Part shown: positions 20,055 through 60,430 of the stretch, one piece after another
Layout of the letters: each line of letters opens with the position of its first letter
How positions within the stretch are numbered: the stretch's first letter is position 1
Assembly (NCBI RefSeq): GCF_004010195.1
Contig: NC_057758.1
Location: 5,015,066-5,077,065, forward strand
Reading direction: 5' to 3'
DNA from: Chiloscyllium plagiosum
Taxonomy: Eukaryota
DNA length: 62,000 nucleotides
The notes under the pieces: generated by a model
Seen by the model: only the letters and a program-made list of their open reading frames with translations
The model's database searches: none
What the model was told of the DNA's origin: nothing
Program-made: the position numbers and the translations under genes

Positions 20055-20350
20055 AAGAAACTCCAACGAAACCAATAATAATATAGCAATAAAAATCAAT
20101 AATCTAAAGCAGTTATTGTACTTTAAATCGTAAGGAGAGGTGATCATACAATGAAAAGATATCAGGATAGACTCTTGAAAGGACTTGGAGACATCAAGTC
20201 CATGGGTTACAGATTCTGTTCGTTGAAGGAATGCTCCAATCCGTTGTTCCCAGATTCACATCTCTTGGAGGATCTTTCCAATCGTTTCTTGTCAGATTGT
20301 GTACACTTATTTGAAGTTCCAGACTCTTGCTCCCAGATTCTAATCTCTGT
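20055..20350 (-). pseudogene. Degenerate first exon of GPR139-like gene, copy C
   Basis: One frame reads ...VHNLTRNDWKDPPRDVNLGTTDWSIPS...SLYDHLSLRFKVQ*LL*IIDFYCYIIIGFVGVS. The junction GTTGGAGTTTCTT|GGAAGTCACTCTATTCCATCATTGACTGTA aligns to copy A GTTGGTGTTCCTG|GTGAGTCTCTCTATCCGACCATTAACTCTA. Three stops (20194, 20113, 20104), and the donor GT is mutated to GG. Confidence 0.72.
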
Positions 20351-21020
20351 CTATCTCTTTCTCGCTCCATCTCTGTCTTTCCAGAATGAGGGATCCATCT
20401 AACCGCGGAGAATATCTTCCCACCGACACTATGGAACATCCATTGAAAGAAATGGCTTTTTAAACACAAGATGGAAATCTTCCAGCGACAACGTTTGGAT
20501 CCACAGCAACTTATGATAATTGCAAGCTTGAAACAAACTGTTTCACATAACCTCGTTCGCTGCAAAAACATGTGTAACAGAACAAATACCGAGATGGAAA
20601 TATAGATCACCACTGACTGTTCAAGTAAACGACGGTGACTGTTGTCATCTGTTAATACTCCCTGTGTGTTACGGAGCTGTTTCATATTCCAGTTGTTCCC
20701 ATACTACCACACCGTTATAAACTGTAAATAGGTGTAAACACTAGAACTCAAGACCAGTCGGTAGGATTCCTGTAGGAAAATTTGTTAGATCTGAAAATAA
20801 GGTTCACAGCCTAAGATTACAGGTTACGGTGCTTAGACAGAGATGAGACGATATATTTTCACACAGAGAGTAGGGTACTTGTAGAACTACCCACCACAGA
20901 AAGTAGTTCATGCCAGAACATTGAATATTTTCAGGAAATAGATATGGAAGGTTCTTAAAGTGAAAGTAATTTATGGCAAAAAAGAGGTGGGGACAGGGTA
21001 CTGACGAGGTTGCTCATTTC

Positions 21021-21315
21021 TTAGATTGCTTAGATTAGATTACAGTGTGGAAACAGGCCCTTCGGCCCAACAAATCCGCACCGACCCGCCGAAGCGAAAC
21101 CCACCCATACCCCTACATTTACCCCTTACCTAACACTACGGGCAATTTAGTATGCCAATTCACCTGACCCTGCACATCTTTGAACTGTGGGAGGAAAGCC
21201 ACGCAGACACGGGGAGAACGTGCAAACTCCACACAGTCAGTCGCCTGAGGCGGGAATTGAACCCGGGTCTCTGGCGCTGTGAGGCAGCAGTGCTAACCAC
21301 TGTGCCACCGTGCCG
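21021..21315 (-). mobile_element. Essentially full-length tRNA-derived V-SINE (HE1-like)
   Basis: 5' GGCACGGTGGCACAGTGGTTAGCAC (A box), GGTTCAATTCC (B box), V-domain TGTGTGGAGTTTGCACGTTCTCCCCGTGTCTGCGTGG, and (TAATC)n tail. Confidence 0.9.
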
Positions 21316-21774
21316 TCTTGCAGGTCACGAAGAACATGACATAGATTCCCAGCTCCTTGGAAATACTGAACAACGATGGGTACCCTGTCGGTTGCAGCAC
21401 GTCCAAATCAAGATAATCAGAGAATGAGATATGGTGGACATTGAGAGCCTTTGTCGTCGGATGGTGATGGCTAGCACGGGCTTTAAATTGAGAGGTGATA
21501 GGCAGAGGACAAATATCTGATATCTCTTTTTTACTCACAGAGTAGTTGGGACATGGAACGCACTGCCTGCAACTGTACTATACTCGTCAATTTTATGCGT
21601 ATTTAGATATTAATTGTATGAGCACACAGATGAAAATGGAATAGTGTCATAAAGATAGGGTTCAGGTTCGTTTCACACGTGAAGGCAACATCGAGGGACA
21701 AAAGGCCTGTACTGCGCTGGAATGTTCTTAGTTCTATGTTCTACAACATACTGTGAAAAATCCCAATGCTGCTG

Positions 21775-23930
21775 TTCTTGCAACGGCTTGTCAACCTAGA
21801 TCAATCTACGTCAAGTCCGTCCTTCCAGCAAGAGCTTCCAAACAATCATTCACTCTGTTCCCCTTGCAACAGCTGTGAACCCATCCTGTCTCTGTTATTG
21901 TAGAGAAAATGCCTGTGACCCTATCGCCATCTATTTCCCTAGCAACAGCCTGTAGCCCATCCCTACTCTACTATTTGAGAAATGACCTGCGAACACATTC
22001 CCACTCTGTCCCTGGAGCAAAGGCCTGAAGACTCATCATACTCTGTTTTCCTTGCAACAGAATGTGAAACCCCATCCTGTGAATATTCTCCGAGCAATGG
22101 CATTTGAACACATTTTCACACTGTTCTCCTCGAAGCATCCTGTGACCCTATACCAACTCTGTCTCCCTCGCAACGGTCTCAGAAACTATTCCCACTCTGT
22201 TCCCCTAGCATCGACCGGCAATCACATCTTCATTCTGTTCCTCAAGCAACGAATTGCGGACAACCATGTAAAGTCTGTTCTGCCAGCAAGGGCTTGTGAA
22301 CAAACTCCCACTGTCCTCCCATCAAGATACTGTGAACCAATTCCTCCCTGTGACAACATCGTCACTCTGCTTCCTTTGGAACAGCCTGTCAGCCCATCGG
22401 CACAGTATTCCCTGAATAATGGGTTAAAAACAATGACTGCAGATGCTGGAAACTAGATTATGGATTAGTGGTGCTAGAAGAGCACAGCAGTTCAGGCAGC
22501 ATCCGAGGAGCAGTAAAATCGACGTTTCGGGCAAAAGCTCTTCATCAGGAATACAGGTAGAGAGCCTGAAGGGTGGAGAGATAAGTGAGAGGAGGGTGGG
22601 GGTGGGGAGAAAGTAGCATCGAGACTCCCCTAATAATAGCCAGTGAAACCATTCGAAAGCTCTTCTCAATGCAACAGACTGTGCACTTACTCAGAAATGT
22701 TCTCCCAGCAAAGGCCTGTGAACCCATCGTAACCTTTTTCACCCACGAGCGACTTGTGAACTCACCCTCACTCTGATCCTCTCTAAACATCCTGTGAAAG
22801 CAGACCAACTCTGCTCTCCTACAGACTGTGAACCTATCATAAATCTTTCTCCGAGAAACAGCCTGTGAACCCATCCCCACCCTGTTCCCTAAGCAAAAGT
22901 CTGTAAGTCCATTTCCACTCTGTTTCCTTGGAAACGGCTTGGACACGCATTGCTGTTCTGTTTCCCCAGCAAGTTCCTGTGGATACATGCAACCGTTGGT
23001 CATCTCCAACGGCCTGCGAACGCATCCCCAAATTGTTCCACTAAGAATACCCTGTGAAACCGTGTCCACCCAGTTCTCCAAGCAACTGTCTGTGAACCCA
23101 TCCGCAACCTGTTTTTCGAGCAGCGGCCTGTGAATCAATTCTCATTATGTTCGCTGAGCAATGGCTTGTGACAATATCCCCATTCTGTTTACTGAGCAAC
23201 TGCATGTGACCCCTTCCACACTCTGTTGTCGTCGCAACTGGCTGTGACCCCAACCTACATCTGTTCCTCTCAGAAAAGCCTCTGAACACATCCTCACTAG
23301 ATTCTCATAACAATGACCCGTTAAGTATCACAGCTCTTTTCTCCTGGGAACAGTGTCTCGCGAGATACCCACTCTGTTCCATTAGTAACGGCCTGTCATC
23401 TAGTCACCAATCTGTCCCCAGCAAAGGACTGAGTACCCCTCAACGTGTGTTACCATAGCAAAGCCCTGAACACTTCGCTATTGTGTTCTCGTAGCAACCG
23501 TATCTGATGCATCCTCCTTTTGTTCGCTTTTCAATTGCCTGTGAACCGATCCCCACTCTGTTCCTCTAGAAACAGCTTGTAACTAAGTCTCCACTCTGTT
23601 TCCGTAGGAGTGGCCTGTGGATCCATCTCAACACCTGGAAACGGCCTGTGACCGCTATACCACTGTGTTTCCCTGGCAACAACATGTGAACACATTTCCA
23701 AGCTATTATTTTATTAACGGCCTATGAAACAATTCCAACTCTGTTCTCCCAGAAGCATCCTGATAACCTATCTTAAATCTGTTCTCCGAGCAACGGCTTC
23801 TGAACACATCCCAACTCCATTCTTCTACCTTGGCCTCTAAACCAATCCTCATGATGTTCCCCACGCTCTTCTCCTTGCAACGGACTGTGAACCCCACCCC
23901 TCTGTTCACCCAGCAATTGACTGCACCCAT
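21775..23930 (+). repeat. Degenerate minisatellite, about 38-bp unit (consensus about GCAACGGCCTGTGAACCCATCCCCACTCTGTTCCCCGA), roughly 50 copies
   Basis: Recurrent cctgtgaacccatc...actctgttc at 37-38 bp spacing, interrupted at 22424-22620. Confidence 0.88.
22424..22620 (-). mobile_element. Penelope 3'-end fragment with a hammerhead-like core, inserted in the 38-bp array
   Basis: Minus strand reads CCTGATGAAGAGCTTTTGCCCGAAACGTCGATT at about 22517-22549. Same family as 30562-30750. Confidence 0.8.
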
Positions 23931-24369
23931 AATCACGGAACACAAGCCAAACGTACGTTAAGTCAGGATGAGGGTGATTGGGTGGTAGAGAGAAAGGGAA
24001 AGAAGGAGAGAGAGTGAAGTAGACTTGGGAAGGTTGTGCAACACCAGAAGCAAGAGCAAGGGCAGTGTGAGTTAAACCCCACTCCTCAGCTCCGGCCAAT
24101 AGTACTCGCTTCCCTGAGTATCAGGACGTGGGGCAGAGTATCTCTCTCTCCAGTTCAGCTTTTACAACACAATGGAAAATAAGAATATATTTCATGCTGC
24201 TATTTTGCCCCTTTTAATAAAGATTTTTATTATTTGCAAATTGAAGTGATGGATACAGTCAATGGGATGGTGCATTTTCTCATTGGTCCCTGAGTTGAGA
24301 GAAAGATTGAAATTGGTCCTTGTAACCCCCTGTGGGATAAGGTTGGACAATCCAGCACTACCCGCAGTC

Positions 24370-25196
24370 TGTTACGAAAGCGACAGGCTGCTTCATTTCT
24401 GATACATTGATTAGAGAAGAGAAAATCTCGGAAGAATTAATGAGAGAAACATATTTTTAGATGAATTTTGGAATAGTTTTCAACACGGGATGAATCTCTC
24501 TGCTAATTTAAACCTGTAACAGAGAAAGATTTACCCCGTGCGGTAATCTGTAATAATTTAGAAGATAATAACTATTTTAAGTCACAAGTTAAAGTAAAAA
24601 TTAACTATTTCTTAATGTCTAAGAGACAGTAAGTAATTACCAAATATTCACAACTCCTTCCTCTCACCCATCTTTTACTTTCACTTCCATAATACTAAAC
24701 CGCTAAAACGCCAGAGTACCATGGACATCAAATACTGATTTCACGACCAGGGAGCTGTCGAACCATTTGTATCCTCCTGTATAGAGTTTCATCTTCTTAG
24801 GGATTATTGTGTCAAGGATATACATTCTTGTGGCTGTTAAAGGCATCTTTAAAAAAGCTGTGTGTCTGGTAGTCTGTACATGTTAACGGCTTGTCAATTC
24901 TCCCTAATCTATTTACGTTTTCCCAGTATTATATCGCTAAAGCATCGGACTAAGTCACTGTTTTTTTTTTAATATTTTCAATGTGCTAAGTTAAAATTTG
25001 ATTGTAGTATGGTATTTAGGGATACAGTTTAAACTGATTGCCCTAAGTCCATTGTTTGCTCTCTGCAGTCAACCAGCTACACTAGCGGCTGGAACAAAAT
25101 GTTACATTGCATCTTGTTCAGAACACTTCGTGTTGTCAGGCAGTTCTGCTATTTTGTAACTCTCTTAAAGGTACAGTACACCCAACTTTCACAACA
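24370..25196 (-). mobile_element. Putative solo LTR (about 830 bp) abutting the GPCR exon-2 3' end
   Basis: TG...CA ends with imperfect 11-bp terminal inverted repeats (TGTTGTGAAAG...CTTTCGTAACA, 9/11 match) and an AT-rich interior. No TSD seen. Confidence 0.5.
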
Positions 25197-26067
25197 AACG
25201 GCACATTTCAGCACATTCTTCAACTGCTGTCTGAACTTTGTCTGGATCATGGCATAAATCGCGGTGTTTGTGCAGCAACTGAGAAGCTTCTGCATAAAGG
25301 CCAATTCCAGAATAAAGTCATTGAGATGCACAGATTGATATCCAATGTCATACATCCGATACCATATGGAATACACCATTAACGTTGGCCATAACAGTAT
25401 GAACTTGGCCGCAATGACAAACAGTAAAATAATGGATTTTTTCCGATTTTGCATTTCTGTGTCAGACTGAGCGTTTCCATTGGTGTGAGCCCGGAGTCTC
25501 CTGCGGACTCTGCTGGTCATTAATATATGTTTAATGGTGAAAACATTGAGCAGCAGAATCAGGAGAAATGGGAGAGCCGGAGTTAGAACGTGATGAAGGA
25601 ACTCCATTGTGGCCCAGACAGGAGAGTACTTGACAGTGAGTGTTACAGCACAAAACCAGGGGGAGTTCCATAGCCAATACCGAGACGTGTACATAAAATA
25701 CCAGAAAATGTTCTTTAAGCAGCTCAGCACATTGACTGTTCCCAGAACTATAGCCGCCGTTTTCTCACTGCAATATTTGTTTTTCAGCTTCTGGCAACAA
25801 AGGGCCACGAATCGATCAAAGGTCATAGCAACGGTGTACCAGACAGAACAGTCAGTGGTTGCATAAAGCAGGACTGCTTGGATATACACACGGGGATGGA
25901 CCTCACGAAATGAAACTGTTTCGGATAAACAATGGGTATGTGTCTCAATATCAGGTCGAGGATAATGACCAATAGGTCTGCCACTGCCATGGCCCCAAGG
26001 TAACGTCTGATACACGGAGACAATCCACAATCTTTATAAATCAAGACATAGATCGTCATTACATTTA
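25149..26067 (-). pseudogene. Second exon (TM1 end to TM7 and tail) of a GPR139/GPR142-like GPCR, with a 1-nt frameshift
   Basis: Acceptor TTTGTCTTTTTTCACAG|TAAAT. The first frame reads NVMTIYVLIYKDCGLSPCIRRYLGAMAVADLLVIILDLILRHIP...PVC, switches frame near 25885, then continues IQAVLLYATTDCSVWYTVAMTFDRFVALCC...LLSCCTNTAIY. DRF replaces DRY and NTAIY replaces NPxxY. The coding sequence is split over ORFs 25823..26089 and 25149..26030. Confidence 0.9.
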
Positions 26068-26743: not shown

Positions 26744-26949
26744 GGAAATGTGTTGCTGGAAAAGCGCAGCAGGTCAGGCAGCATCCAGGGAACAGGAGAA
26801 TCGACGTTTCGGGCATAAGCCCTTCTTCAGGAAGGGCTTATGCCCGAAACGTCGATTCTCCTGTTCCCTGGATGCTGCCTGACCTGCTGCGCCTTTCCAG
26901 CAACACATTTCCAGATCTGATCTCCAGCATCTGCAGACCTCACTTTCTC
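26744..26949. mobile_element. Short palindromic Penelope-end element with a hammerhead-like core and 15-bp TSD
   Basis: 82-bp inverted arms (26744-26825 and 26831-26912, one mismatch). Flanked by CTAATATCGGAGGTT at 26729-26743 and 26950-26964. Confidence 0.85.
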
Positions 26950-26974
26950 CTAATATCGGAGGTTCACAAATCTG

Positions 26975-30527: not shown

Positions 30528-33500
30528 TGCAGTATGTTTGAGGTAGGGGTGTCCATCGATACCTGGATTAGTGGTGCTGGAAGAGCACATCAGTTCAGGC
30601 AGCATCCAAGGACAGGCAAAATCGACGTTTCGGGCAAAAGCCCCGAAACGTCGATTTTGTCTGTCCTCGGATGCTGTCTGAACTGCTGTGCTCTTCCAGC
30701 ACCACTAATCCAGAATCTGGTTTTCAGCATCTGCAGTCATTGTTTTTACCCCGTTTCGACCACCGATACTCCAGTCAGATCCTGCTCCTCACAGAACGAG
30801 TTAGGGAACTGGAACTGGAGTTGGATGAACTGAGGATTATTCGAGAGGCTGAGAGGGTGATAGATAGAAGCTACAGGGACATAGCTACGCTATGCTAGTT
30901 TTGCTGTCTGGAATGTAAGCAGCCATGTGCAGTATCTTCAACTGGGTAACAGTTAGAGGTGGGAAGGGGAGGAAGCTGGCAGTGTAGGGATCCCCTGTGG
31001 TCGTTCCCCTAAACAATAAGTATACCGCGTTGAATACTGTTGTGGGGACGGCCTAGCAGGGGTAGGCTGCAGTGACCGGGTCTGTGGCGCGAGGTCCTGC
31101 TCTGAGACTCAGAAGGGAAAGAGGGAGAGGAGGAGAGCGCTAGTTATAGGAGACTCTCTAGTTAGAGGGACGGACAGGCGGTTCTGTGGACATGGGCGAG
31201 ACTCTCGGATGGTTCGTTGCCTCCCGGGTGCCAGGGTCCGAGATGTCTCGGACCGTGTGTTCAGAATCCTTAACGGGGAGGGTGTGCAGCCAGAGGTCGT
31301 GGTGCACGTTGGCACCAACGACATAGGTAGGAAGAGGGGTGGGGAGGTCATTCAAGAGCTCAGGGAGTTAGGCTGGAAGCTAAACGCTAGGACAGACAGA
31401 GTCATCATCTCTGGGTTGTTGCCGGTGCCATGTGACAGTGAGGCAAGGAATAGGGAAAGAGTGCAGTTGAACACGTGGCTGCAAGGATGATGTTGGAGCG
31501 AGGCCTTCAGGTATTTGGGCAATTGGACTGCATTCTGGGGAAGGTGGGACCTGTACAAGCAGGACGGGTTGCACCTGAACCAGAAGGGCACCAATATCCT
31601 GGGGGGTAGGTTTGCTAGCACTCTTCGGGGGGGTTTAACTAATTTGGCAGGGGGATGGGATCCGGACTTGTAGTCCAGCAAGTAGGCTAGCTGTTTGTCA
31701 GGATGTCCAAGAATGTAGGGAGGCTGTGAAGAAGGTAGCACTGACAGGGAATACTTGCGGACACAGCGATGGGTTCAAGTGCGTATGCTTCAACGCAATG
31801 AGTACCCGAATTAAGGTGGGTGAACGTAAGGCGTGGATTGGTACCTGGGACTACGATGGTGTGGCCATTACGGAAACGTGGATAGAAGAGGGACAGGAAT
31901 AGTTGTTGGAGGTTCCTGGTTACAGATGTTTCAGTAAGATTAGGGAAGTTGGTCAAAAAAGGAGGGGGGTGGCGTTGCTAATTAGAAATGGGAGAACGGC
32001 TGCAGAAAGGCAGTTCGAGGGGGATCTGCCTTTGGAGGTAGTACGGGCTGAAGTCAGAAATAGGAAAGGAGCAGTCACCTTGTTGGGTGTTTACTATAGG
32101 ACCCCCAATAGCAGCAGAGATGTGGAGAAACAGATTAGGAAACAGATTTTGGAAAGGTGCAGAAGTCACAGGGTAGTAGTCATGGGCGATTTCAACTTCC
32201 CAAATATTGAATGGAAGCTCTTTAGATCAAGTAGATTGGATGGGGCGGTGTTTGCGCAGTGTGTCCAGGAAGCTTTTCTAACTCAGTATGAAGATTGTCC
32301 GACCAGAGGGGAGGCCATATTGGATTTGGTACTTGGTAATGAACCGGGACAAGTGTTGGGCTTGTTAGTGTGTGAACATTTTGGTGATGGTGACCACAAT
32401 TCTGTGACTTTCACCTTGGTTATGGAGAGAGATAGGTGCGTGCAACAGGGTAGGTTTTACAACTGGGGGAAGGGTAATTACGATGCTGTAAGACAGGATC
32501 TGAGGAGCATAAGGTGGGAGCATAGTTGGGAAGGATGTCGTGGAAATGTGGAACTTTTTCAAGGAACAGATACGACGTGTCCTTGATATGTATGTACCTG
32601 TCAGGCGGGAAAGAAATGGTCCTGTGAGGGAACCTTGGTTGACGAGGGAGGTTGAATGTCTTGTAAAGAGGAAGAAGGAGGCTTGCATAAGGTTGAGGCA
32701 ACAGGATTTAGACAGAGCAGTGGAGGGATACAGGATAGCCAGAAGGGACCTGAAGAAATGGATTAGGAGGGCTAAGAGAGGTCATGAAAAATCTTTGGCG
32801 GATAGGTTCGAGGATAATCCAAAGGCATTTTATGCGTAAGTGAGAAACATGAGAATGACGAGAACGAGGGTTGGTCCGATCAAGGACAGTAGTGAGAGAC
32901 TGTGTATTGAGTCGGAAGAGATAGGAGAGGTCTTGAATGAGTACTTTTCTTCAGTATTTACGAACGAGAGGGACCGTATTGTTGAAGAGGAGAGTGTGAA
33001 ACGGACTGGTAAGCTAGAGGAAATACTTGTTAGGAAGGAAGATGTGTTGGACATTTTGAACAACTTGAGGATAGACAAGTCCCCCGGGTCTGACGGGATA
33101 TATCCTAAGTTTATGTGGGAAGCAAGAGAGGAAATTGCAGTACCTTGGCAATGATCTTTTCGTCTTCACTGTCAACGGGGGTGGTACCAGGGGACTGGAG
33201 AGTGGCAAATGTTGTGCCCCTGTTCAAAAAAGGGAAAGGATATCCCCGGGAATTACAGGCCAGTTAGTCTTACTTCGGTGGTAGGAAAAGTAATGGAAAG
33301 GGTACTGAGGGATAGGATTTATGAGTATCTGGAAAGACACTGCTTGATTAGGGACAGCCAACACGGATTTGTGAAGGGTAGGTCTTGCCTTACAAGTCTT
33401 ATTGAATTCTTTGAGGAGGTGACCAAGCATGTGGATGAGGGTAGAGCAGTGGATGTAGTATACATAGATTTTAGGAAGGCATTTGATAAGGTTCCCCATG

Positions 33501-34572
33501 GTAGGCTTATGCAGAAAGTCAGGAGGCATCGGATAGAGGGATATTTGGCCAATTGGATAGAAAACTGGCTAACCGGTCGAAGTCAGAGAGTGGTGGTAGA
33601 TGGTAAATATTCAGGCTGGAGCCCAGTTACAAGTGGAGTTCCGCAGGGATCAGTTCTGGGTCCTCTGCTGTTTGTAATTTTTATTAATGACTTGGATGAG
33701 GCAGTCGAAGGGTGGAAAAGAAAATTTGCAGATGATACGAAGATTGGTGGAGTTGTGGATAGTGAGGAGGGCAGTTGTCGGCTGCAAAGGGACTTAGATA
33801 TGATGCAGAGCTGGGATGAGGAGTGGCAGATGGAGTTCAAACCTCCCAAGTGTGAGGTTGTCCATTTTGGAAAGACACATAAGAATGCGGAATACAGGGT
33901 TAACGGTAGGGTTCTTCGTGAGGTGGAGGAACAGAGGGATCTTGGGGTCTATGTTCATAGATCTTTGAAAGTTGCCACTCAGGTGGATAGAGCTTGTAAG
34001 AAGGCCTATGGTGTATTAGCGTTCATTAGCAGAGGGATTGAATTCAAGAGTCGTGAAGTGATGTTGCAAATGTACAGGACTTTGGTTAGGCCACATTTGG
34101 AGTACTGTGTGCAGTTCTGGTCGCCTCACTTTAGGAAAGATGTGGAAGATTTGGAGAGGGTGCAGAAAAGATTTTCCAGGATTTTGCCTGGAATGGAGAA
34201 TAGGTTGTACGAGGATAGGTTGAAAGTGCTAGGCCTTTACTCGTAGAGGTTTATAAGATGATCAGAGGAATAGATAGAGTAGACAGTCAGAAACTCTTTC
34301 CCCGGGTACAAGAGAGTGTTACAAGTGGACATAAATTTAAAGTGAAGGGTGGAAGGTATAGGGGAGATGTCAGGGGTGGGTTCTTTACCCAGAGAGTGGT
34401 GGGGGCATGGAATGCGCAGCCTGTGGGAGTGGTAGAGTCAGAATCTTTGGTGACCTTTAAGCGGCAATTGGATAGGTACATGGATGGGTGCCGAAGCCAT
34501 GACAAATGTTCGGCACAACATCTTGACCGAAGGGCCTGTTCTGTGCTGTATTGTTCTATGTTCTATGTTCTA
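30528..34572 (+). mobile_element. Near-full-length CR1 LINE (ORF1 SGNH esterase; ORF2 APE endonuclease plus RT), inactivated
   Basis: ORF1 motifs GDSLVRG, VHVGTNDI and QDGLHLN. Endonuclease motifs ITETW, LGVYYR, MGDFNFPNI and DGDHN. RT motifs NYRPVSLTS, YIDFRKAFDKVPH, GVPQGSVLGP and FADD. 3' tail is (TTCTATG)n. Several stops and frameshifts (e.g. near 32525, 32837, near 33150). Confidence 0.95.
30562..30750. mobile_element. Palindromic Penelope-end element inserted in CR1 ORF1
   Basis: Inverted arms ctggattagtggtgctggaagagcac...gtgctcttccagcaccactaatccag around cgacgtttcgggcaaaagccccgaaacgtcg. Confidence 0.8.
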
Positions 34573-35039
34573 ATAGCTGTACTCCAGTTCTCTGGCACCT
34601 CTCCTTTGGACAGATTCTACTTATGTCTTTGACTCAGAAGGTTTACAACGTTTCTCTCACAACAGCCTATGATTCAACTCATCCAGACATGCCAATGAGT
34701 CCAGTTTCATACCAGCCAGTGTCTCCATCCCTACTTTCATATTAATGTGGTCAAGAGATTGATTTCTGCACCTGGCTCCTCCACTTCTCTGAATCGAAGG
34801 CTCACCACAATATCTCGCTTTTTTTCAGAGACAATTCCTCTCTTCTAATGCAATTTAAATATTTTTTTTAACTGTCGTTGTGTCTTCTTTCTTTTGTGCT
34901 GTTTGGTCTGTGGTGAGTATTTGTACAACTTACATGCCGTAGTTTTTATTTAAACAACAGACATTGCCTCTCTTCCTTTCATCTTTGTCGTGTACTTTTG
35001 CAGTTCGCTGAAGTGATCTAACGCCTTATAGGTTTATAA

Positions 35040-41015: not shown

Positions 41016-41173
41016 CAGAGACATCAATGATAGCCAGAATAGGACAATAAGAAAAGAATAATGAAAAATGCAATACAGATTCATGATAATAATGACAACC
41101 AATATGTAGCAAGTTTCCAAACATTCTCAGATAAACCCCGTTCCATCATTATAATTCTCGGATTCTGATCCAT
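41016..41173 (-). pseudogene. Disabled first exon of GPR139-like gene, copy B
   Basis: Reads MDQNPRIIMMERGLSENVWKLATYWLSLLS*ICIAFFII, then a frameshift, then YCPILAIIDVS+G|GTCAGT, homologous to YFPILAIVGVP+G|GTGAGT of copy A. In-frame TGA at 41081-41083. Length 158 nt is out of phase. Confidence 0.8.
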
Positions 41174-46589: not shown

Positions 46590-49270
46590 GAAACCTGATC
46601 CAGTCTGGAAATTGGCTCGGTGCGGTCTGGAGACTCGACCCTGCGTTGGTCTCTGCACTGGGCCCGTTGCAGTCTGGCGACTGTACTCAGTGCTGTCTGG
46701 AGACTGGGCCTGGTGCGGTCTGTGTACTAGCCCCAGTGCTGTCTGAAGACTTGGCCCAATGCTTTGTGAATATTTCGCTTAGTTTGGTCCAGAGATTCGG
46801 ACAGCATGGAGACTCTGTCTGGTGCGGTATGGACACTGGGCCCGGTGTAGTCTGGAAACTTGACCCAGTGTGGTCTGAAGACACGGCACGGTGCGGCATG
46901 GAGATGCAGTCTCTTGTGGTACGGAGGCTGAGCCCGGTGCTGCCTGGAGACTGAGCCCATTGCGAACTGCAGACTTGACCTGATGTGGTCTGGAGGCTGC
47001 AACTGGTATGGCCCAGAGGCTGGGCCCGTTCCCGTCTGGAGATTGACTCTAGCGTGGCCTGTAGACTAAGATGGCTCAGTCTTGAGACTCGGCCCAGTGC
47101 GATCTGGAGACAGGGCCCGTTGTGATCTGCAGACTTGACCTGGTGCATTCTGCAGACATGAACTGATGTTGTCTGGAGATTGAGTCTGGTGTAGTCTGCA
47201 GACTGAGTATGGTGCAGACTGGATACTGGCCCCAGTGCGCTCTGGGTACTTGGCACATTGAAGTTTTGAACTCGATCTGGAGCAATCTGGTGATTAGGCC
47301 CAATGCAGTTGGACTACTGGAGACTGGGATTGGCGCAATCTGCTGACTCTGCCAGTTATGGTCTGGCGACTTGGCCCTGTGCAGTCTGGCGACTTGGCCT
47401 GGGGTGTTCTGGAGTCTGGGCCAGTGCGGTCTGGAGACTCAGCTAGGTGCCCAATGCAGTCTGGAAACTGGGCCCAGCATGCCCCTAAACTGGGACAGAC
47501 TAGACACAGTGCGGTCGGGAGATTGGGCACAGTAGAGTGTGCAGACTTGGATTCTTGCAATCTGGAGACTTGGAATGGTGTGAGCTGGAGACATGGCACA
47601 CTGTGTTCTGGAGACTCAGCCTGGTGCAGTCTGGAGACTTGGCCATGTGCGGTTTGGGGATTTGTTCTGGTGTCGTCTGGAGACTAGGCGCAGTGTGATG
47701 TGAAGACTCGGACTGGCGCGGTGTGAAGACTTGGAACAGAGCAGTCTGGAGACTCGGCCCGGTCCAGTCTGGAGAGACGGCCTGGTGTGGAATGGAGAAT
47801 TGGTCTGGTGCGGTGTAGAGACTAGGCACAGTGCGGCCTGGCGACTGAGCCCTGTGCAGTCTGGAGTCTGAGCCCGGAGTGATCTGGAGACTGGGTCTGG
47901 CGCGATCTGCAGACTTGGCAGGGTTCAATGTGGAGACTGGGTCCGCTGCAGTCTGGAGACTTGATCTGTCGCTTTCTGGTTACTTAGACTACTGTGGTCA
48001 GGAGAGACGGCCACATGTGATCTGGATTCTTGGCTTGATGTGGATTGGATACTGGGTGCAGTGCGGTCTAAGGACTGGATCTGGTGCAGTCTGGAGACTG
48101 GCCTGGGTGCGGTCTGTACAGTTGGCTTTCTGCCGTCTGGAGACCTGGCCCAATGCAGTCTGGAGACTTGGCCCAGTGTGATCTGGAGATTTGACAGTGC
48201 GCAGTCTGGAATTTCGGCCTGGTGGAGTCTGGAGACATGGCCTGCTGTGGTCTGGAGACTTGGCCCAGTGCAGTCTGGAGACTGGGCACAGCACGCCCTT
48301 AGACTGGGACTGGTCCATTCTGGAGAATGGAACTGGTGCGGTCGGAAGACTGGGCTCAATGCGGTCAGGAGATTGGGCACAGTAGTGTATGCAGACTTGG
48401 CTTCTTGCAATCTGGACACTTGGCGTGGTATGTTCTGGAGACTGGGCCCAGTGCGATCTGGAGACTTGGCCTGGCGTGGTCTGGAGACTGGAGCCCATGT
48501 GGTCTAGAGACTGGGCTCAGTGCAGTCTGCAGAACTGACCAAATGCGGTATGGAGACTTGGCTCAGTGCGTCATTCAGGCTTGATCAGGTCTTATCTGGA
48601 GACTGCACCCGGTGTGGTCTGGAGACTGGGCACGTTGCAGTCTGTCGACTCGGCCGGGTGCGGTCTCGAGACTGGGCACAGTCTGATCTGCAGACCTGGT
48701 CTGGTGTAATCTGGAGACACAGCCAAGTGTGCACTGGAGATTTGGCCTGATGCAATGTGTAGACTGTGCCCAGTGTGATCTGCAGACTTGGCCTGGTGCG
48801 GTCAGGTCACAAAGCCTGATGTGGCCAGGTGACTGTGTCCGCAGCAGTCTGTGGACTGGTTTTGGTGCAGTCAGGCGACTGGATATGTGGCCCAGGGCGG
48901 TCTGGAGACACGGTCCACTGTGATCTGGAGGTTTGGCCTAATGCAGTCTGTAGACTGGGCCCAATGTGACTTGCAATCTTGGCCAGTTGAGATCAGGAGA
49001 CATGACCTGGTGTGGTCTGGAGACGAGGACCAGTGTTGTCTGAAGCCTCGAACTGGTACAGTGCGGACTTGGCCTGGTGCAGTCTGGAGACATGGTCCGA
49101 TGTGTTCTGGACACGGGGTCCCGTACAGACTGTGGACCAGGTACAGTGTGGTCTGGGGACTGGGCCCTGTGCGATCTGAATACTTTGTCTCGTTCGGTCT
49201 GGAGACGTGGCCCAATGCAGTCTGGAGATTGGACCTGGAACAAGGCAGATGGATAATGGGTATCCTGGAG
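46590..49270 (+). repeat. Degenerate minisatellite, 23-bp unit (consensus about CTGGAGACTGGGCCCAGTGCAGT), roughly 115 copies
   Basis: ctggaga recurs every 23 bp (e.g. 48160, 48183). Confidence 0.92.
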
Positions 49271-49479
49271 ATGTAATTTCTCTGGACTGCTGTAAGTAAT
49301 TGATTAAGGTGTAGGACAAATAGTAATTCCGTAAAATAAACGCACACTATTTTGGAATAATTTATCAACTTGAATAGAAGATCAGCCAAACAAAATAACG
49401 CATTGAGATGGAATAGATGCATCGTTTTCTGGCAGATTTTGGGGTGCCATAGAGTTCGATTCCCAGGCTCCAACACTTT

Positions 49480-52380
49480 GCAGTCTATTTGATGTATTGA
49501 TTGGGAGAATAGAAAATAATACAGCCAGATTTACAGGTGATGTTCTAATAGGTGGAAAAATAGATTGTAATGAAGATATATGACATTTACAAATGATAAT
49601 GAATGGGTCAACATCTGACAGATGAAATTTAACATGGATATGTATTCAGTTTTGCATTTTGTACAGAGAAATACAAAAGCAACTTATTAGCTTAATGTAG
49701 AGAAACGTTATCGAGTTTAGCTGCAGAAGGATCTGTGTTTCCTCGTTTTAATCACGAAAAAGGTAAATGCATGTACAGCAGGCATTGAGGTCGGCAAACA
49801 TAATTAAGGCGTTTATTTGGAAAGAATAAAGATTAAATGTAAGAAAGTATTTTTGCATTCATTCAATGCATTAGCAAAACGCAACAGGAGCACTGTATAC
49901 TTTATTGAGGAGAGATGCAGCTGCACTGGAGGCAGTTCGGAAGATTTTCATTAGTTTGTTTCCAGTGATGAGAAGTTTGTCTCATTAAGAGAGATTGGGC
50001 AGTTCATATCTATACTGCCAGATTAGATTAGATTACTTACAGTGTGGAAGGAGGCCCGTCAGCCCAATGAGGAGATTGCATTGAAGTCTGAAAAATACCA
50101 AAGGCGATTGACGATGTAGTTTTGATTTGATATTTCCTCATGTGAGGCAATCTGGAACATGCGATCAGAATTATAGAATAAGAAGGAACAGATTTAATAC
50201 AGGGGTGAAGAGATCTTCCTTCTCTCAAAGCGTTGTGACTCTGTGTAATGTACTGACCGAGAGTGCAGTGAATGCTGGGATATTGAGTAAATGAAGCAAT
50301 GTGGAGACTGGATAGGAAAATGGAACTGAAGCTAAGATGACATCAACCATTGCTGTTTCAAAATGGTGGAGCAGGGTCAAGTGGCTGATTTGCCGACTTA
50401 AATACTCTTCGTTCCTGTTCAGTCCTTCAAATATGCTACAGGAATGCGGGAGGGCTGGTAATCAAACAGGGATCAGGCACGGGGGAATAATCAGTCTTCA
50501 TGAGTTTGACAGAACGAAACAAGTCGAGTTACACAGTGACCAGTGCTGGGTACTCAACTATTTGCAGTCTATATCAATAATTTGAGTATAAGGCCATAAG
50601 ATATAGGAGCAGAATTTGGGCCACTCAGCCGATCGAGTCTGCTTCACCACTCAATCGTGGCTGATATATTTCTCAACCCCATTCTCCCGCTTTCTCCACA
50701 CAAATCTTGATCTCCTTGATGTGCAAAAATCTACCTGTTTCAGTCTTAAGTATGTTAAATGAACTCGTCTCGACGGCCTTCTCTGGCAATTAATTTCAGA
50801 AATTCACCGCTGTCTGGCCGAAGATGTTTCTCCTTATCTCTGTTCTAAAATGTCTTCTCTTTCCTCTCAGGCTATGCCTTTGGATGCTATTGCATCCTAC
50901 CAATGGAAACATATTCCAACCACACATCCAGTCCACGCTATTCAGTATTCTATAAGTTTCAATTACATCCTTCCTAATTTTTTGAAACAACATCGAGTAT
51001 TTACCCAGAGTCCTCAAAAATTCATCGTGTGATAAGCTCTTCATTCCTGCAACCTCCTCTCAAAGCCACACAGAAAGCCAGTACATCCTTCCTGAGATGC
51101 GGTGGACAAATCTGCGCAAAGTGCGCTAAATATGGTCTGACCAGAGTCTTATTCACCCTCAAAAGTATGTACATGCTTATATATTCATGTCCTCACAAAA
51201 TAAATGTCATCATTACATTGGCCTTCTGGCTCAAACTGCAAGTTCACCTTCAGAGAATGCTGGACGACAGCACCCGAGTCACTTTGCACTTCTGATTTTC
51301 TCCCCATTTAAAAAAAATGCCCATATCTCTATTCTTCCTCCCAATGTGGATGACCTCACAATTTCCTTAGTTGTAATCCATTGTTTTGCCCACTCGACCA
51401 AAACGTCGAACTCTTTCTGCAGACTCCTCCATGTTACGGGTCAATCTACCTATTTTTGCATCATCTTCAAATCTATCTAAACGCTTAGTTGCTTCATCCA
51501 GAATGTTAATGTATAAAATTGAAAGTTAGAGGAACAAATTTACTGTAACTAGTGTCTGACGTAGCAAATAAGGTAAGCAGGATCTGAAGTACCAAGAGAA
51601 GGTGGAGAGTTTGTGAATGAAAATAAACAGACAAATTTACAGTATGTCAGCATGAATACAGGCCCTTCGGCTCAAACGTGTCTCTGCTGACAATAGTGCC
51701 CACTCAACCGGGTCCAGTTGTCCGCATTTGGTCCATATCCCCTTACCGTACCGTTAGAATTTTGTTTTTTTTTAGTTTGCTATTGTAACCGGATCAACCA
51801 ATCTCTCTGGCAGCCCATTCCATAAACACACTGTTCTCTGGATGAAGACGATGCCACTCAGGTCATCCATAAATCTTTCCCGTCTCACATTAAACCTATA
51901 CCCACTAGTTTTCCATTCACCATTCCTGGAAAGGAGAATATTTTTCTTCTTCCTATCAATGTTCACTCATCGTTCTCCTGAATTCTGAGAAATAAAGTCC
52001 TATCCTGGTCAAATTCTCCATATAATTCAAGCCTACTTTTCCTGGCATCATTCTCGTTAAACTTATTTGCAGTCTTCCCAGTTTAACTGCGTGTTTCACA
52101 TAACAGGGTGACCTCATTTGTACGCAATTTTTCAATTGTGACCTCACCAATAAAACTGTAGTTAACATTCCAACTCCCATACGCAATACTACGACAAATG
52201 AATGCCAGCATGTTAAATCCCTTCTTCACCATCCTGCTTACCTGTGACGCTGCTTTCAATGAACTATGTATTTGTATTCTTCGACCTGTCTGCTCCTCAG
52301 GACCTTAAACATTTCCTATATAAGGCCTATCTTGGTTTGACTTTCCAAGTGCAACACCTATCAGTAATATATACTGAATT
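49480..52380. mobile_element. Degraded CR1 fragments in both orientations
   Basis: CR1 3' peptides in ORFs 50796..51044, 51772..51966 and 51956..52186. Confidence 0.6.
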
Positions 52381-53544
52381 CAGTTTGGAGATGTTTCAAA
52401 ACAATGCCAGGTATATTTCTGTTGCAATTTATTTCAAAATGCCATTGACAGACCACCGGCTCATGGTGGATAGCTTGTCTGTAGTCTCATTCTTTTGTCA
52501 AAGACGTTCCTCTGAAGGTAAGACGTATTGCAAGACCGTTCCTGTTGATAAGACATGTGAAACTTCCAGGATATTCTCTATCTAACCAGTGTGATAAACT
52601 ATGTAAAATGCTGGTTAGCATTATCTATTTTTTCTCACTTTTCCTGACCGGGAATCGCCAGTTTCATCTTCCAAATGTGCCAAGAAGGCTTCAGCTGCTC
52701 TCTTATGTTTTATTTATTTATACATAGCACTTCGTGCTATTTCTCGTTGTTTACAGGCAATTTATTTTCCTAATTAGTTTCCTCCAATTTTATCTGTTTC
52801 AAATCGGTCAATTGCTGCATCGGTAAAAAAATGCAGTTATCTTGCCTACCAGCAGTGTTCATCATTTGGTGTGTTTTTTTTTCTATTGTGCACTTATGTT
52901 GATTACTTTTCTTAATCATGGAAGGGTCATCGTCTTACAGATTCCTCTTCGATCATTATGAAACATATTGTCAGTTACCTGCCTTTGTTTATCAAATAAG
53001 CTTCCCCTTCGTCCTTTTTTCCAGCTCATGTCGATCATTAAGTAAGTAAAAGTGACTGAGCTGCGGATTTGACACTTTTCTTTTCTCAAGCCGTCAAGGG
53101 GTGGGTTCCAGGAGGGTGAGGATGGGTGAGGGCTTCCTAATCTGGTTAAACACATGATCACCTTAACAGTGAAACACTCACTTTCAAAGGATAGCCAGAA
53201 AACACGTTTCAAAGACAAAAGTCAAACTTGCTGGAATGCCCTGTCTCGGAAGGAGAACCAAGTGTGATATACTGGCAAGTAAATAACAGTACAAGCAACA
53301 CCATGGCACCACTGAATTAACAGAGGATACATTCACGTTTAGTGACGGTAACAGAGGGAAACACATTAGTTTCAAACATCGCTTTAGGCAGCGCTGAAAG
53401 GGAGAAGGGTTGACAAAGACATTAATAAGGATATGGAGGAATAGACTAAATTGAAAAGTGATGCCAAAGTCGAACCCTCATAAGAATAATCACATAAAAA
53501 TAGGTATTAGCACAGCAGAATTCAGTGCAGGTTAGCAATCATCG

Positions 53545-56500
53545 CAGTGATGGGCGAATGGGGCAGTTTCGATCACCGAGTATATGGAAGATGGGTGAAT
53601 GGGACAGGGTAGGTCCGTGTGCACAGGGATGATGGATGACTTGGACAGTGTCAGTCACTGTGTACAGAGGAGATTGGTGAACGGACAGTATAGTAAAGGG
53701 GTGATGAGTGAATGGGACAGTGTAGGACAGTGTGTTCAGGGATGACCAGTGAATGGGACAGTTTAGTTCTGAAATTAAAGGGGTGCTGGGTGAATGGGAC
53801 TGTGTAGCTCCGTGAGTACAGCGGTGTCTGAGCAACGCCCATGTGTAGGTTATTGAGTGCAGTGGTGATGAGTGAACGGGACAGTATAGATCAGTGAGGA
53901 CAGGTTTGATGTGTGAACTGGACAGTGCAGCCCAGTGAGTACAGGGGTGATCGGTGAATGGGTCAATATAGGTCAGTGTTGGTCAATGAGTACTGAGGTG
54001 ATGTGTGAATGCGACAGTGTAGGTCAGTGGGTAACAGGGAAATTGGTGAAAGGGACAGTGTAGGTAAGTGAGTACAGGGGTGATGGGTGAATGGGACACA
54101 ATAGATCAGTGAGTATTGAGGTGAAGGGTGAATGAGACAGTTTAGGTCACTGAGTACAGGGTGAATAGTGAATGGGACATGTAGGTTTCCGAATACGGGG
54201 TGATGGATGAGCAGTTCTTTGCAGTTCAATATGTACGGGGTGATGGGTTAACGGGACAGTGTAGGTCAGTGGGTACACGGGTTACGGGTGACCGCGACAG
54301 TGTAGGTACATGACCACAGGGCTAATGGGTGAAGGGGATAGTGTAAGTCAATGAGTTCAGGTGTAATGGATGAATGACACAGTGGAGATCAGTGCCTGCG
54401 TGGGTGTTGGGTGAATGGAACGGTGTCGGTGAGTTAGTTCAGGGATGTTGGCTGAATGAGACACTGCAGGTCAGTAAGTGCAGGGGTGATGGGTGAACGG
54501 GACAGTGTAGTCAGTGACGGGAGTGGTGATGAGTGAATGGGATAGGCTAGGTCCGTGGGCAAAGGGATGATGTGTGAATGGAAGAGTGTAAGTCAGTGAA
54601 TGCAGATGTGATGGGTGAATGGGACTGTATAGGTAAGTGATTACAAGGACTGATGGGTGATTGGGACAGTTTTGGTCAGTACGTACATGGTTGTTGGGTG
54701 AATGGGGCAGTGTAGTTCAGTGAACATGGGGTTCTGGGCATAGGAGATGGTGTAGATAAGTGAGCACAGGAATGATGGGTGAACAGGACACTGTAGGTCA
54801 GTGAGTGCAGGGATCATGGGTGAATGGAACAGTGTGTGTCAGTGATACCGGGAGTGATGTGTGAAACGGATATTATACATTGGTGAATACAGGGGCATGA
54901 GTTTACAGGACAGTGTATGCCAGTGATTACCGGGAGTGTTGGGCGATTGGGACAGTTTAGGTCAGTGGGCTCATGGATGATGGGTTATTGGGGCAGTGAA
55001 AGTCATTGAGCACATTGTGTCGGGACCGTGTAGGTAAGTGAGCACTAGGGTGATTGGAGATTGGGATAGTGTCGGTCAGCGAGTATAGTGGTAATGAGTG
55101 AATGGGACAATGTGGGTAAGTGATCACAGGGTTGATGGGTGAATGGAACAGTGCAGCAAGGTAAGTATCAGGCGTGTTGTGTGAATGAGATTGTGTAGGT
55201 CAGTGAGTACAGGGGTGATGACTGAATGGGATAATGTCGATCAGTGAGTAAAGGGGTGTTGGGTGAACGGGACAATGTAGGTAAATAAGCACGGGGTGAT
55301 GTATGAATGGGACAGTGTACGTCAGCGAGTCGTGGTGTGTTGGGTAAATGGGACAGTGCAGGCCAGTGAGTACAGGGGTGGTGAGTGAACGGGGATATGT
55401 AGCTCATTGAGGACTGAGTTCTTGGTTGAACGGGGTAATGCAGGCCAGTGAGTAGAGGGGTAATGGGTGAACGGGATAGCGTGCGTCAGTGAGTTCAGTG
55501 ATGATACCTGAATGGGAGCGTGTAAGTTAATGAGTACAGTAGTGATGGGTGATCGGGACAGTGTGTGTCAGTGATTACCGGGAGTGATGGGTGATTGGGA
55601 CAGTTTAGGTCAGACGAATGGGGCAGAGTATGTCAGTGAGTACAGGGATGATGGGCGTTCTGAACTGTGTAGGTAAGTGAGCACGGGGTGATGGGTGATT
55701 GGGACAGTGTCGGTCAGTGAGGAGAGGGGTGATGAATGAGTGGTACAGTGTAGGGAGGTGAATGTAGGGGTAATGGGTGAACGGGATAGTCTTGGTCAGT
55801 GGCACGCGGTGATGCGTGAATGGGAGAGTATAAGTCAGTGAATGCCGATGAGAGATGTGAATAGGATTGTGTAGGTAAGTGATTATTAGGGTGATGTGTG
55901 AATGAGACAGCGTAGTTACATGAGTACAGGAATGGTGGGTGAACAGGACAGTGTAGTTCTGTGAGTAGCGGAGCGGTTGGTAAAACGGAGAGTATCGCAC
56001 AGTGAGTACAGGATTGATGGGTGAATGAGACAGTGTAGGTCAGTGAATACAGGGTGATGAGTGAATGGGACAGTTTAGGTAAGTGAGTGCAGGTGTGATG
56101 GTGAAGGGGACGGTGTCGGTCAGTGAGTAAAGTGGTGATGAATGAATGGGACAGTGTAGGTAGGTGACTATAGGGATAATGGGTGAGCGGGATAGCCTAA
56201 GTCAGTGTAGGTGATGCGTGAATGGGAGATGGTGTTTGTGACAGTGTCGGTCAATGAGAAGAATGGTGATGAGTGAATGGGACAGTGTAGGTACTTGTGC
56301 ATAGGAATTATGGGTGGATGCAAGAGTGTAAGTCAGTGAATGCAGATGTGGTGGGTGAATGGCACTGTGTAGGTAAGTGATTATCAGGGTGATGTGTCAA
56401 TGGGACAGTGTAGGTAAGTGAGCACGGTGTTATTGCTGTTTGTGACAGTGTCGTGACAATGAGAAGAGTGGTGATGAGTGAATGGGACAGTGTAGGTACG

Positions 56501-56705
56501 TGAGTACAGGGATGATAGTTGAACAGGACAATGTAGTACTGTGAGTACAGGAGCGGTAGGTAAACGGGACGGTGTCGCTCAGTGAATGCAGTTGTGATGG
56601 GTGAATGGGACAGTGGAGGTCATTCAGTACAGGGGTAACGGGGGAACAGAGCTGTGTAAGTCTATGAGCACAGGGGTGATGTGTGAACCGGACAGTGTAG
56701 GTCAA
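53545..56705 (+). repeat. Degenerate minisatellite, 41-bp unit (consensus about GGGTGATGGGTGAATGGGACAGTGTAGGTCAGTGAGTACAG), roughly 77 copies
   Basis: cagtgagta at 55201 and 55242; the pattern persists throughout the span. Confidence 0.93.
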
Positions 56706-56709
56706 TCTG

Positions 56710-57050
56710 TACGGGAAGAAATGTGAGTGATGATCGGTCTGAGTTGTAACATAGGCAATAGAGTTGAGGATGAGCTGAAAGATATGGACAGTACAACTAC
56801 GATGTCACTAAGATTAGTATTGAACAGGTTTAGTCTCGATCTACCACAGATATTGAGAACGATTTTTTTTAGCAGCGGGTCTGAAGCACAAGCAGAAAAG
56901 GAGGATTTAATTGACGTGGAAGTAGGTTAATGTCTTGGTGGTAGAATTGAAAAGTGGTAAAAAACACAGTTCAGTGTGAAGTAGAATGCTGACGTTGTAC
57001 ACCAACTGGTTCAGAATCAGATATTGGCTAGGACAGGAATAAAGTCAGTA
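56710..57050 (-). mobile_element. L2 LINE ORF2 remnant contiguous with the 41-bp array
   Basis: The minus strand gives TYFHVN*I and SRLN.FN, resembling the L2 motifs AYFHLRNI and SRLDYxN that precede ITPVL..LHWLP. Confidence 0.6.
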
Positions 57051-59177: not shown

Positions 59178-59356
59178 AAGAGTGTGGTGCTGGAAAAGCA
59201 CAGCCCGGCAGGCAGCATCAGAGAGGCAGCAGAATCGACATTTCGAGCATAAGCACTTTGTTAGGATGTCCTCGGATGCTGCCTGACCGGCTGTGCTTTT
59301 TCAGAACCAAACTCTTTGACTCTGAACTCAAGCATCTGCAGTCTTCACCTTCTCCT
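59178..59356. mobile_element. Older palindromic Penelope-end element
   Basis: Imperfect inverted arms. Flanked by attctggaggac and attccagaggac (degenerate 12-bp TSD). Confidence 0.7.
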
Positions 59357-60036
59357 ATTCCAGAGGACACTTCAAGGCCAATGACATTTTTGCTTTCCGA
59401 AGTCACAGATAAGACAGACCGAGCAAAGAATGTTATAATATTTTTCTAATGGACATGCACGAACCACGTAATTCACTAAAATCTACTTTCAGTCATGATG
59501 ACCGCAGATTTATTGTTAATTATCGCAGCTGCAAGTGTGTGGGGTAGAATTTGCCCATGCCACCACAGCACGAACCTGTGGATTTGGGTTATTGTATATC
59601 ACAACAATACCGTCGTGTCCCAAGATAATGTCATCTGTTGGCAGAACAACAGGTAAAGTTCCCTGTTGAATTCTTACTACTAGAAGTGGAGAGGGAAAAG
59701 TATTGGAATACAACTTGCATAGGAAATAAGTACAGATAATTCAGCAGCTGGAGTGAGACTGATATGGAAACAAGAGATATTGTGCAGTCAATAATGTACA
59801 GTATTATTGCTGGGTCGAACATGGAGACAAAGTCAATTCAGGGCAAGGTTACTCATGAAGGTTGTGAACTGTTTTTTTTCCTCCTTTGGTTTTAGCTTTA
59901 AACTTGTTTGATGAGAAATAAAGTTTATGAATGAAAATGATTACAGTTGCTTCAATCTTTTCTGAACTTAAATAAATAGGACAGTAATTCAAAGCAACAA
60001 GGTAAGTAGAGTTAATGGTCGGATAGAGAGACTCAC

Positions 60037-60217
60037 CAGGAACACCAACGATAGCGAGGATAGGAAAGTATCCAGCTTGGACCACCCAAAATGCACCCCA
60101 GAGCCGATAGGATAATGGTATTCGATCACGAAAAAGCCAGGAAAGACCCAAAGGTAAACTCCTGTACATTGTTGGAACATTCCAGTTTATTGATCTAAGA
60201 CTCTGATCCATTGTCAT
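60037..60217 (-). CDS. First coding exon (N-terminus to mid-TM1) of a GPR139/GPR142-like orphan class A GPCR, copy A, apparently intact
   Basis: Reads MTMDQSLRSINWNVPTMYRSLPLGLSWLFRDRIPLSYRLWGAFWVVQAGYFPILAIVGVP+G, then a canonical donor CCTG|GTGAGT. Length 181 nt (phase 1) matches the phase of the exon-2 acceptor at 26067, and joining gives ...GVPVNVMTI (TM1 Asn). Confidence 0.85.
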
Positions 60218-60339
60218 AACGTGCCAGTCTGAAATTTTAAGATTCTGACCTCTTGTATGCTTTGCTGTGTAGCTGCTGATACCTGTTCGTGTCGGAGGTG
60301 ATGCACACGATCATTCTATGGAGTAACACATCGAGCGCA

Positions 60340-60430
60340 GTCCCTTATTCATAAGAGTGATAAATCCTCCAGTGACACGTTTTGAATCATGGGGACTGAC
60401 ATTTATTACAGTCACTGAGCAAACAGATCC
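60340..60430 (-). promoter_or_regulatory. Putative promoter block upstream of first exon A
   Basis: Non-coding block shared with the other copies: gactgacatttattacagtcactgagcaaacag vs 41358 gactgacatttatcatcgtcacccaacaaacag, and aaatcctccagtgacacgttttgaatc vs 20475 aaatcttccagcgacaacgtttggatc. Confidence 0.5.

What the first reader, a model, noticed from the sequence alone, without database searches (positions are those of the whole stretch)
20055..60430. Hidden tandem cluster of GPR139-like receptors: three first exons with promoters but only one second exon
Seen: three paralogous minus-strand exons end in the same TM1 motif and phase-1 splice position (YFPILAIVGVP|, YCPILAIIDVS|, CYIIIGFVGVS|). 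Each has a homologous upstream block. There is only one TM1-TM7 exon (25149-26067). The exon ends of copies B and C are invisible in the ORF track. Known: GPR139 is normally a low-copy, two-exon amino-acid-sensing orphan GPCR. Inference: this is part of a lineage-specific birth-and-death receptor repertoire with highly divergent ectodomains, a pattern typical of chemosensory or immune receptor families.
Basis: partly seen in the sequence, partly recalled or inferred. Interest (0 to 1): 0.78.

Follow-up and report, generated by a model that had tools for sequence, protein, structure and literature searches.

The report
First-exon swap in shark receptor array
This stretch of shark DNA holds one recently broken copy of a receptor gene from a family of more than a thousand copies, and the intact far-upstream first exon likely took over from a long-dead nearer one, so the extra first exons are mostly fossils, while the family itself is a possible but untested set of chemical sensors.

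Summary
The three first exons (A, B, C) and the single second exon are real, but no whole gene in the window is intact. A is intact. B has a stop and a 2-nt deletion, C has stops and no GT donor, and exon 2 has a 1-nt deletion with neutral decay (10 N : 3 S). They belong to a shark/ray class A GPCR family with at least 1,102 exact motif copies in this genome. It is separate from the single GPR139 and GPR142 genes. New here: B's lesions are shared with copies 83% identical, yet exon 2 stayed under purifying selection after that split (dN/dS 0.29). An A-type intron also lies upstream of dead B in two other copies. A therefore likely replaced B as first exon across a 34-kb intron. No spliced read shows this. 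A protocadherin-like choice among live first exons is not supported: 6 of 8 first exons in a 400-kb sample are dead. Tissue and ligand are unknown, and my olfactory-promoter test was weak. The scan found this family before on other DNA (31 findings, at least 11 genomes). Ten paper searches found no description of it.

The parts
60037..60217 (-). First exon A: intact ATG-to-donor frame of 60 codons + 1 nt (N-terminus and first half of TM1), GT donor; likely working first exon of the gene ending at 25149
   Evidence: three copies about 90% identical are also intact
60218..60625 (-). Conserved upstream (promoter/5'UTR) block of A
   Evidence: nhmmer profile
53520..56720 (.). 41-bp satellite in A's intron, shared with A-type copies
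52370..52390 (.). Junction where identity to paralogous copies switches from about 90% (A side) to about 83% (B side); deletion or unequal crossover into a repeat fragment
46650..49300 (.). 23-bp satellite upstream of B; the same satellite lies upstream of other first exons on C8
41174..41589 (-). Upstream block of B; keeps a TAATTA motif next to a TCCCAGTGAA site at about 41346
41016..41173 (-). Fossil first exon B: TGA at 41083-41081 and 2-nt deletion near 41055, both shared with copies about 83% identical in the flanks
31020..34632 (+). Broken LINE (esterase-type ORF1, endonuclease, reverse transcriptase) inside the intron
   Evidence: Pfam
25149..26067 (-). Second exon (rest of TM1 to TM7 and tail), 7tm_1; 1-nt deletion at 25884/25885; recent pseudogene
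20055..20262 (-). Fossil first exon C of a neighbouring dead gene: two stops, donor lost; all 6 close copies examined are also broken
20263..20569 (-). Upstream block of C
14626..15125 (.). 500-N gap that could hide a remnant of C's second exon

Best explanation
The window is part of a tandem array of a two-exon class A GPCR family with over a thousand copies in this shark, and it holds one recently broken gene that likely used first exon A, spliced over the long-dead first exon B, plus the fossil first exon C of a neighbouring dead gene. Shown: family size, separation from GPR139/142, the lesions in B, C and exon 2, the age of B's lesions, purifying selection on exon 2 after B died, and A-type intron sequence upstream of B in other copies. 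Inferred: B was exon 2's original partner. After B died and A's own second exon was lost, A's donor would splice to the next acceptor 34 kb away, giving a chimeric receptor with a new N-terminus and outer TM1. This copy then lost a base in exon 2. Inferred and untested: intact members are cell-surface sensors with a conserved signalling core and a diversifying outer face, most likely a chemosensory repertoire.
For: B's stop and deletion occur in C101247, C101259 and C100415. C101259 and C100415 are 79-86% identical to the window and overlap C100411 at 96-98%. Exon 2 is open in C101247 and C100411, with 24 N of 667 sites against 23 S of 197 (dN/dS 0.29, Fisher p 5e-5), no indel in 914 nt and 93.9% identity, against 80-87% with many indels in the intron. 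The branch to the window's clade has 9 N: 17 S; two dead copies give 0.71 by a similar count. C91440, which carries an intact A-type exon, overlaps the upstream end of C100415 at 97.5% over 1.46 kb. C90919 joins A's intron (99%) to a B copy in one gap-free contig. No exon 2 was found between them. A 33-kb intron is normal for the nearest A-type gene on C39. The window's exon 2 is sister to a gene with a B-like first exon (SH-aLRT 95). The window copy shows 10 N: 3 S since its last duplication.
Against: No read or contig shows A joined to exon 2. No canonical exon-1/exon-2 junction was among the loose ends listed in either lay; 315 and 30 rows were not shown. The C91440-C100415 overlap lies in repeat-containing DNA (next-best hit 87%), and both contigs have gaps. 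A's region is 10% diverged from its copies while B's is 17% diverged, so A and B were not copied as one simple unit. Other A-type copies continue into different sequence that I could not follow. Exon A itself shows dN/dS near 1 on few sites, and the C100411 branch is 13 N: 5 S. On C8 two intact exon-2 copies also show dN/dS 0.37 with only dead first exons in view, which other mechanisms could explain. A- and B-type first exons are scattered on a poorly resolved exon-2 tree (7 changes, 25 labelled rows).
Confidence: 0.55

Rival explanations
1. A is an orphan whose own second exon was deleted. B plus exon 2 is simply a dead gene, and exon 2 looks conserved because of gene conversion from close, unassembled intact paralogues.
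For: The junction at about 52,380 looks like a deletion or crossover. A shows dN/dS near 1. The assembly is fragmented: by eye about 90 of 150 top exon-2 hits and about 75 of 150 top exon-1 hits lie on small contigs.
Against: 75 derived sites shared by C101247 and C100411 are spread along exon 2, against wholesale conversion from the main family. All 4 other B-type copies found are broken or cut off at a contig end, and all 4 A-type exons are intact.
Confidence: 0.25
2. Exon 2 of this clade was kept alive by a non-family upstream exon or an internal start, not by A.
For: Contigs from runs guessed to be RNA join non-family sequence at the exon-2 acceptor of paralogues (X7; X5). Intact C8 exon-2 copies have only dead first exons in view.
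Against: These are single contigs of other paralogues in other organisms, and RNA status is a guess. Without a family first exon the outer half of TM1 is missing (model).
Confidence: 0.1
3. Protocadherin- or UGT1A-like system: several live first exons with their own promoters share one constant exon.
For: First exons outnumber second exons in contiguous samples: 6 vs 5, 2 vs 0 and 8 vs 5.
Against: Only one of three first exons here is intact and C is downstream of exon 2. 6 of 8 first exons in C8:40.0-40.4 Mb are dead and were copied as parts of segmental duplications.
Confidence: 0.05
4. The exon-2 frameshift or the whole layout is an assembly error, or the window and C101247 are two haplotypes of one locus.
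For: The one DNA run laid showed only a C101247-like contig in the 3' flank (14 of 17 listed differences match C101247), so the deletion was not confirmed in reads.
Against: Independent decay on the window branch (10 N: 3 S, hitting conserved residues). The copies differ by 4-7% over 26 kb and their flanks differ.
Confidence: 0.05

Closest known systems
GPR139 and GPR142 (class A orphans; GPR139 is activated by L-Trp and L-Phe, PMC5430874 abstract; PDB 7vug, 9m42)
   Same: Best solved-structure hit by sequence (E 1e-10). Same intron position in TM1. H187 and W241 are kept (38 and 39 of 39), and F109 is Y in 36 of 39.
   Different: Separate clade. This genome has its own single GPR139 (C21) and GPR142 (C24). 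N271 is F in 36 of 39 and R244 is L in 33 of 39 (R244's role is recalled). Over a thousand copies against one.
RefSeq/UniRef models auto-named 'probable G-protein coupled receptor 139' or 'neuropeptides capa receptor-like' in sharks and rays
   Same: Same family: 1,533 proteins at E<=1e-10; the named ones among the best 120 are all from sharks; skate and stingray members.
   Different: Machine names only. No record carries this clade's tail or exon A.
GPR210A/B, orphans near GPR139/142 in coelacanth, gar and teleosts (PMC6504862, passage read)
   Same: Same neighbourhood: single-copy coelacanth, teleost and salamander orphans are the nearest non-shark relatives.
   Different: That survey has no occurrence of 'shark' in its text. 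The shark keeps its own single genes for the coelacanth-type and anchovy-type orphans (C26, C98156); the expanded family groups with the salamander orphan, on a long branch. I could not map the paper's Ensembl ids, so identity with GPR210 is untested.
Vertebrate chemoreceptor repertoires (OR, TAAR, V1R, V2R)
   Same: Clustered, large, many pseudogenes, variable outer face. Cartilaginous fishes have only 20-62 such genes (PMC10869828, passage).
   Different: Not in these families by Pfam (7tm_1 only) or by structure (nearest folds are peptide and chemerin receptors). TM3 is nearly invariant. The coding region is split by an intron. Expression in a sense organ is not shown.
Variable-first-exon loci (clustered protocadherins, UGT1A; recalled)
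   Same: Several promoter-plus-first-exon units lie upstream of one downstream exon.
   Different: Here only one upstream first exon is alive, so this is replacement over evolutionary time and not a regulated choice.

Membership tests
Class A (rhodopsin-like) GPCR | 7tm_1 domain, seven helices, D/ERY-type motif | tested here: met
   Pfam 3e-11; model of intact relative P0010, pLDDT 83.8, seven TM helices; DRF motif
GPR139 orthologue | Groups with GPR139 to the exclusion of GPR142; single copy | tested here: not met
   GPR139+GPR142 100/99; family plus salamander orphan 100/99
GPR139 orthologue | Activation residues F109, H187, W241, N271 | tested here: inconclusive
   Three kept or conservatively changed, N271 lost (PMC5430874 abstract)
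GPR139/142-related orphans (wider group) | Shared TM1 intron position and best structural-sequence hit | tested here: met
Birth-and-death multigene family | Many clustered copies, recent duplicates, frequent pseudogenes | tested here: met
Chemosensory receptor repertoire | Diversified extracellular face with conserved core | tested here: met
   pN/pS 1.35 in loops vs 0.33 in core, 21 copies, 210 non-independent pairs; entropy profile of 39 models
Chemosensory receptor repertoire | Homeodomain plus O/E (Lhx2/Ebf) promoter motif | tested here: inconclusive
   My ad hoc strict pattern is in 2 of 27 A-like promoters and in B, not in A or C; the motif logo of PMC5608512 is a figure and was not seen
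Chemosensory receptor repertoire | Sparse expression in sensory neurons; response to external ligands | not testable with these tools
   Tissues coded; catshark atlas supplement unreadable
Variable-first-exon / constant-exon locus | Two or more intact first exons spliced to one shared exon | tested here: not met

The most novel reading that the evidence does not exclude
Sharks carry an undescribed chemosensory repertoire of roughly a thousand two-exon GPCRs, and it diversifies partly by first-exon capture: when a gene's first exon dies or a neighbour's second exon is deleted, an upstream promoter and N-terminus are spliced onto a different transmembrane body. This window would record one such swap.
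Probability: 0.25. Interest if true: 0.85.

Novelty: new variant of a known kind. Interest (0 to 1): 0.6.

Why it matters
Cartilaginous fishes are reported to have 20-62 olfactory receptor genes despite many sensory neurons (PMC10869828, passages). A family with over 1,100 copies and a diversifying outer face is an obvious candidate for the missing repertoire, or for an unknown immune one, and existing tissue RNA can test it. The window adds two points. Long-dead first exons ride along in duplications, so exon counts and open second exons both overstate gene number. And a second exon can outlive its own first exon, which points to exon swapping as a source of new receptors. The window's own copy is dead.

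Tried and rejected
Hidden second exon in the window: none by tblastn, HMM or Pfam on 32 chosen ORFs of the 123 listed. RNA: no holder on record as RNA was listed. Single-cell run X20 gave 105 of 13.0 million reads on exon 2, all under 95% alike (paralogues), with unspliced ends at the acceptor; X21 gave none on L004. Runs guessed to be RNA gave 9-54 contigs. None of this bears on tissue. A database protein with exon A was not found (a weak search). Following the A-type copy past the junction ended in a 1-kb contig. The first loop/core partition missed ECL2 and was redone. Literature: ten searches found no paper on the expansion. Supplement searches of PMC11372145, PMC13188829 and PMC13113109 found no family name; PMC13689627 listed only single gpr139 and gpr142 rows. 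The supplement of PMC11979771, a catshark organ atlas that could show tissue, was unreadable. No AU test or site-model selection test was run.
Full report
Observation. The window is G000:C49:5015066-5077065; best hits place the animal among carpet sharks. A DNA profile from 27 other first exons finds A, B and C with their upstream blocks at E 5e-140, 1e-66 and 9e-28, with nothing in a reversed control. Only A is intact (60217-60037). B has an in-frame stop and a 2-nt deletion. C has two stops and no GT donor and lies downstream of exon 2. Exon 2 lacks one base at 25884/25885. Since its last duplication the window's exon 2 has gained 10 replacement and 3 silent changes, against 2 and 2 in the duplicate, so the break is likely real. 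It was not seen in reads, because the one DNA run laid held the duplicate's type in the flank.

The family. The exon-2 peptide gives 150 of 150 scored hits at 71% identity or more, from 7,453 candidates. An exact TM3 motif occurs 1,102 times (control 0), and a strict first-exon-plus-donor motif 360 times (control 0). Databases hold 1,533 relatives at E<=1e-10 under machine names. The genome has one GPR139 (C21) and one GPR142 (C24), plus two more single-copy orphans. In a 42-row tree GPR139 and GPR142 form their own clade (100/99), and the family groups with a long-branched salamander orphan (100/99). All share the TM1 intron position. Of four residues needed for GPR139 activation (PMC5430874, abstract), H187 and W241 are kept, F109 is mostly Y and N271 is mostly F. 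A model of an intact relative is a normal 7TM fold whose nearest structures are peptide and chemerin receptors, with GPR139 at rank 8. Variation is on the outside: mean entropy is 0.18 in TM3 against 1.2-1.7 in the N-terminus and loops (39 models, my boundaries), and pN/pS is 1.35 in loops against 0.33 in the core (21 copies, non-independent pairs).

Why three first exons and one second exon. A 93-97% identical copy on C101247 spans window 47361-21315 and holds B and an intact exon 2. B's stop and deletion are also in C101259 and C100415, which are about 83% identical to the window and overlap C100411, where exon 2 is again open. B therefore died before that split. Exon 2 nevertheless shows 24 N of 667 sites against 23 S of 197 between the two clades (p 5e-5), no indels, and 9 N: 17 S on the branch toward the window; two dead copies give 0.71 by a similar count. 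Something other than B kept exon 2 in use. All four A-type exons are intact. C91440 links an A-type exon to the upstream end of C100415 (97.5% over 1.46 kb, in repeat-containing DNA). C90919 links A's intron to B in one contig, and no second exon was found between them. The nearest A-type gene has a 33-kb intron, so 34 kb is ordinary. Exon 2 is sister to a gene with a B-like first exon. I infer that A replaced B. Against this: no spliced read; unequal divergence on the two sides of a junction at about 52,380; dN/dS near 1 in A on few sites; 13 N: 5 S on the outer branch; and two C8 copies with conserved exon 2 (0.37) but only dead first exons in view, where gaps could hide a live one.

C belongs to a different, long-dead gene. 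All six close copies examined are broken, and two have exon-2 fragments about 14.5 kb downstream. Its partner in the window is lost or inside a gap. A surplus of first exons is common (6 vs 5, 2 vs 0 and 8 vs 5 in three contiguous samples), but 6 of the 8 on C8 are dead, and my profile misses first exons of divergent subfamilies. This is debris, not a live variable-exon array.

Function. Expression could not be assigned to a tissue. A homeodomain-plus-O/E-like pattern is present upstream of B and in 2 of 27 A-like promoters, but not upstream of A or C, so the olfactory-promoter idea from earlier notes is weak in this subfamily by my ad hoc test. The catshark atlas reports no GPCR among its top 50 brain-plus-olfactory genes and never names this family in its main text (PMC11979771, passages; supplement unreadable). 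I favour a chemosensory repertoire on size, clustering and outer-face diversity, at about even odds against immune or other roles. This step is inference.

Novelty. Ten searches found no paper on the expansion; subscription papers are not covered. The nearest printed mention is GPR210A/B in bony fishes (PMC6504862, passage). Verdict: a real but broken locus in a striking, apparently undescribed family; new variant of a known kind; interest 0.6.

Noticed in passing
G000:C26:36600769-36601743 and G000:C98156:21305-22210: Two further single-copy orphan receptors near GPR139/142, grouping with coelacanth/silverside and anchovy proteins; candidates for the GPR210 subtypes in a shark.
   Followed up: partly
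G000:C8:40150000-40265000: Inverted 35-kb duplication (92-96% identical); each arm has two dead first exons and an intact second exon with dN/dS 0.37 between arms.
   Followed up: partly
runs X7 and X5 at the exon-2 acceptor (window 26062; L004:1311): Single contigs join non-family sequence to exon 2 of paralogues; X14 skips 163 nt just upstream. Possible alternative 5' exons.
   Followed up: no
window 25149-25200: This clade (window, C101247, C100411) has a C-terminal tail unlike the rest of the family and absent from database records.
   Followed up: partly
window 60217-60170 and family N-termini: The N-terminus is built from a 14-residue repeat, often with an N-glycosylation sequon, in variable copy number.
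   Followed up: no
window 10000-12000, 22080-23800, 26970-28090, 46650-49300, 53520-56720: Five different satellites (37, 38, 26, 23, 41 bp); the 23-mer recurs about 2.5 kb upstream of first exons on C8.
   Followed up: partly
   Followed up: no
G000:C49:4922397-5132146: Neighbouring second exons include divergent subfamilies (one with its first exon about 1.6 kb away) and two broken copies.
   Followed up: partly
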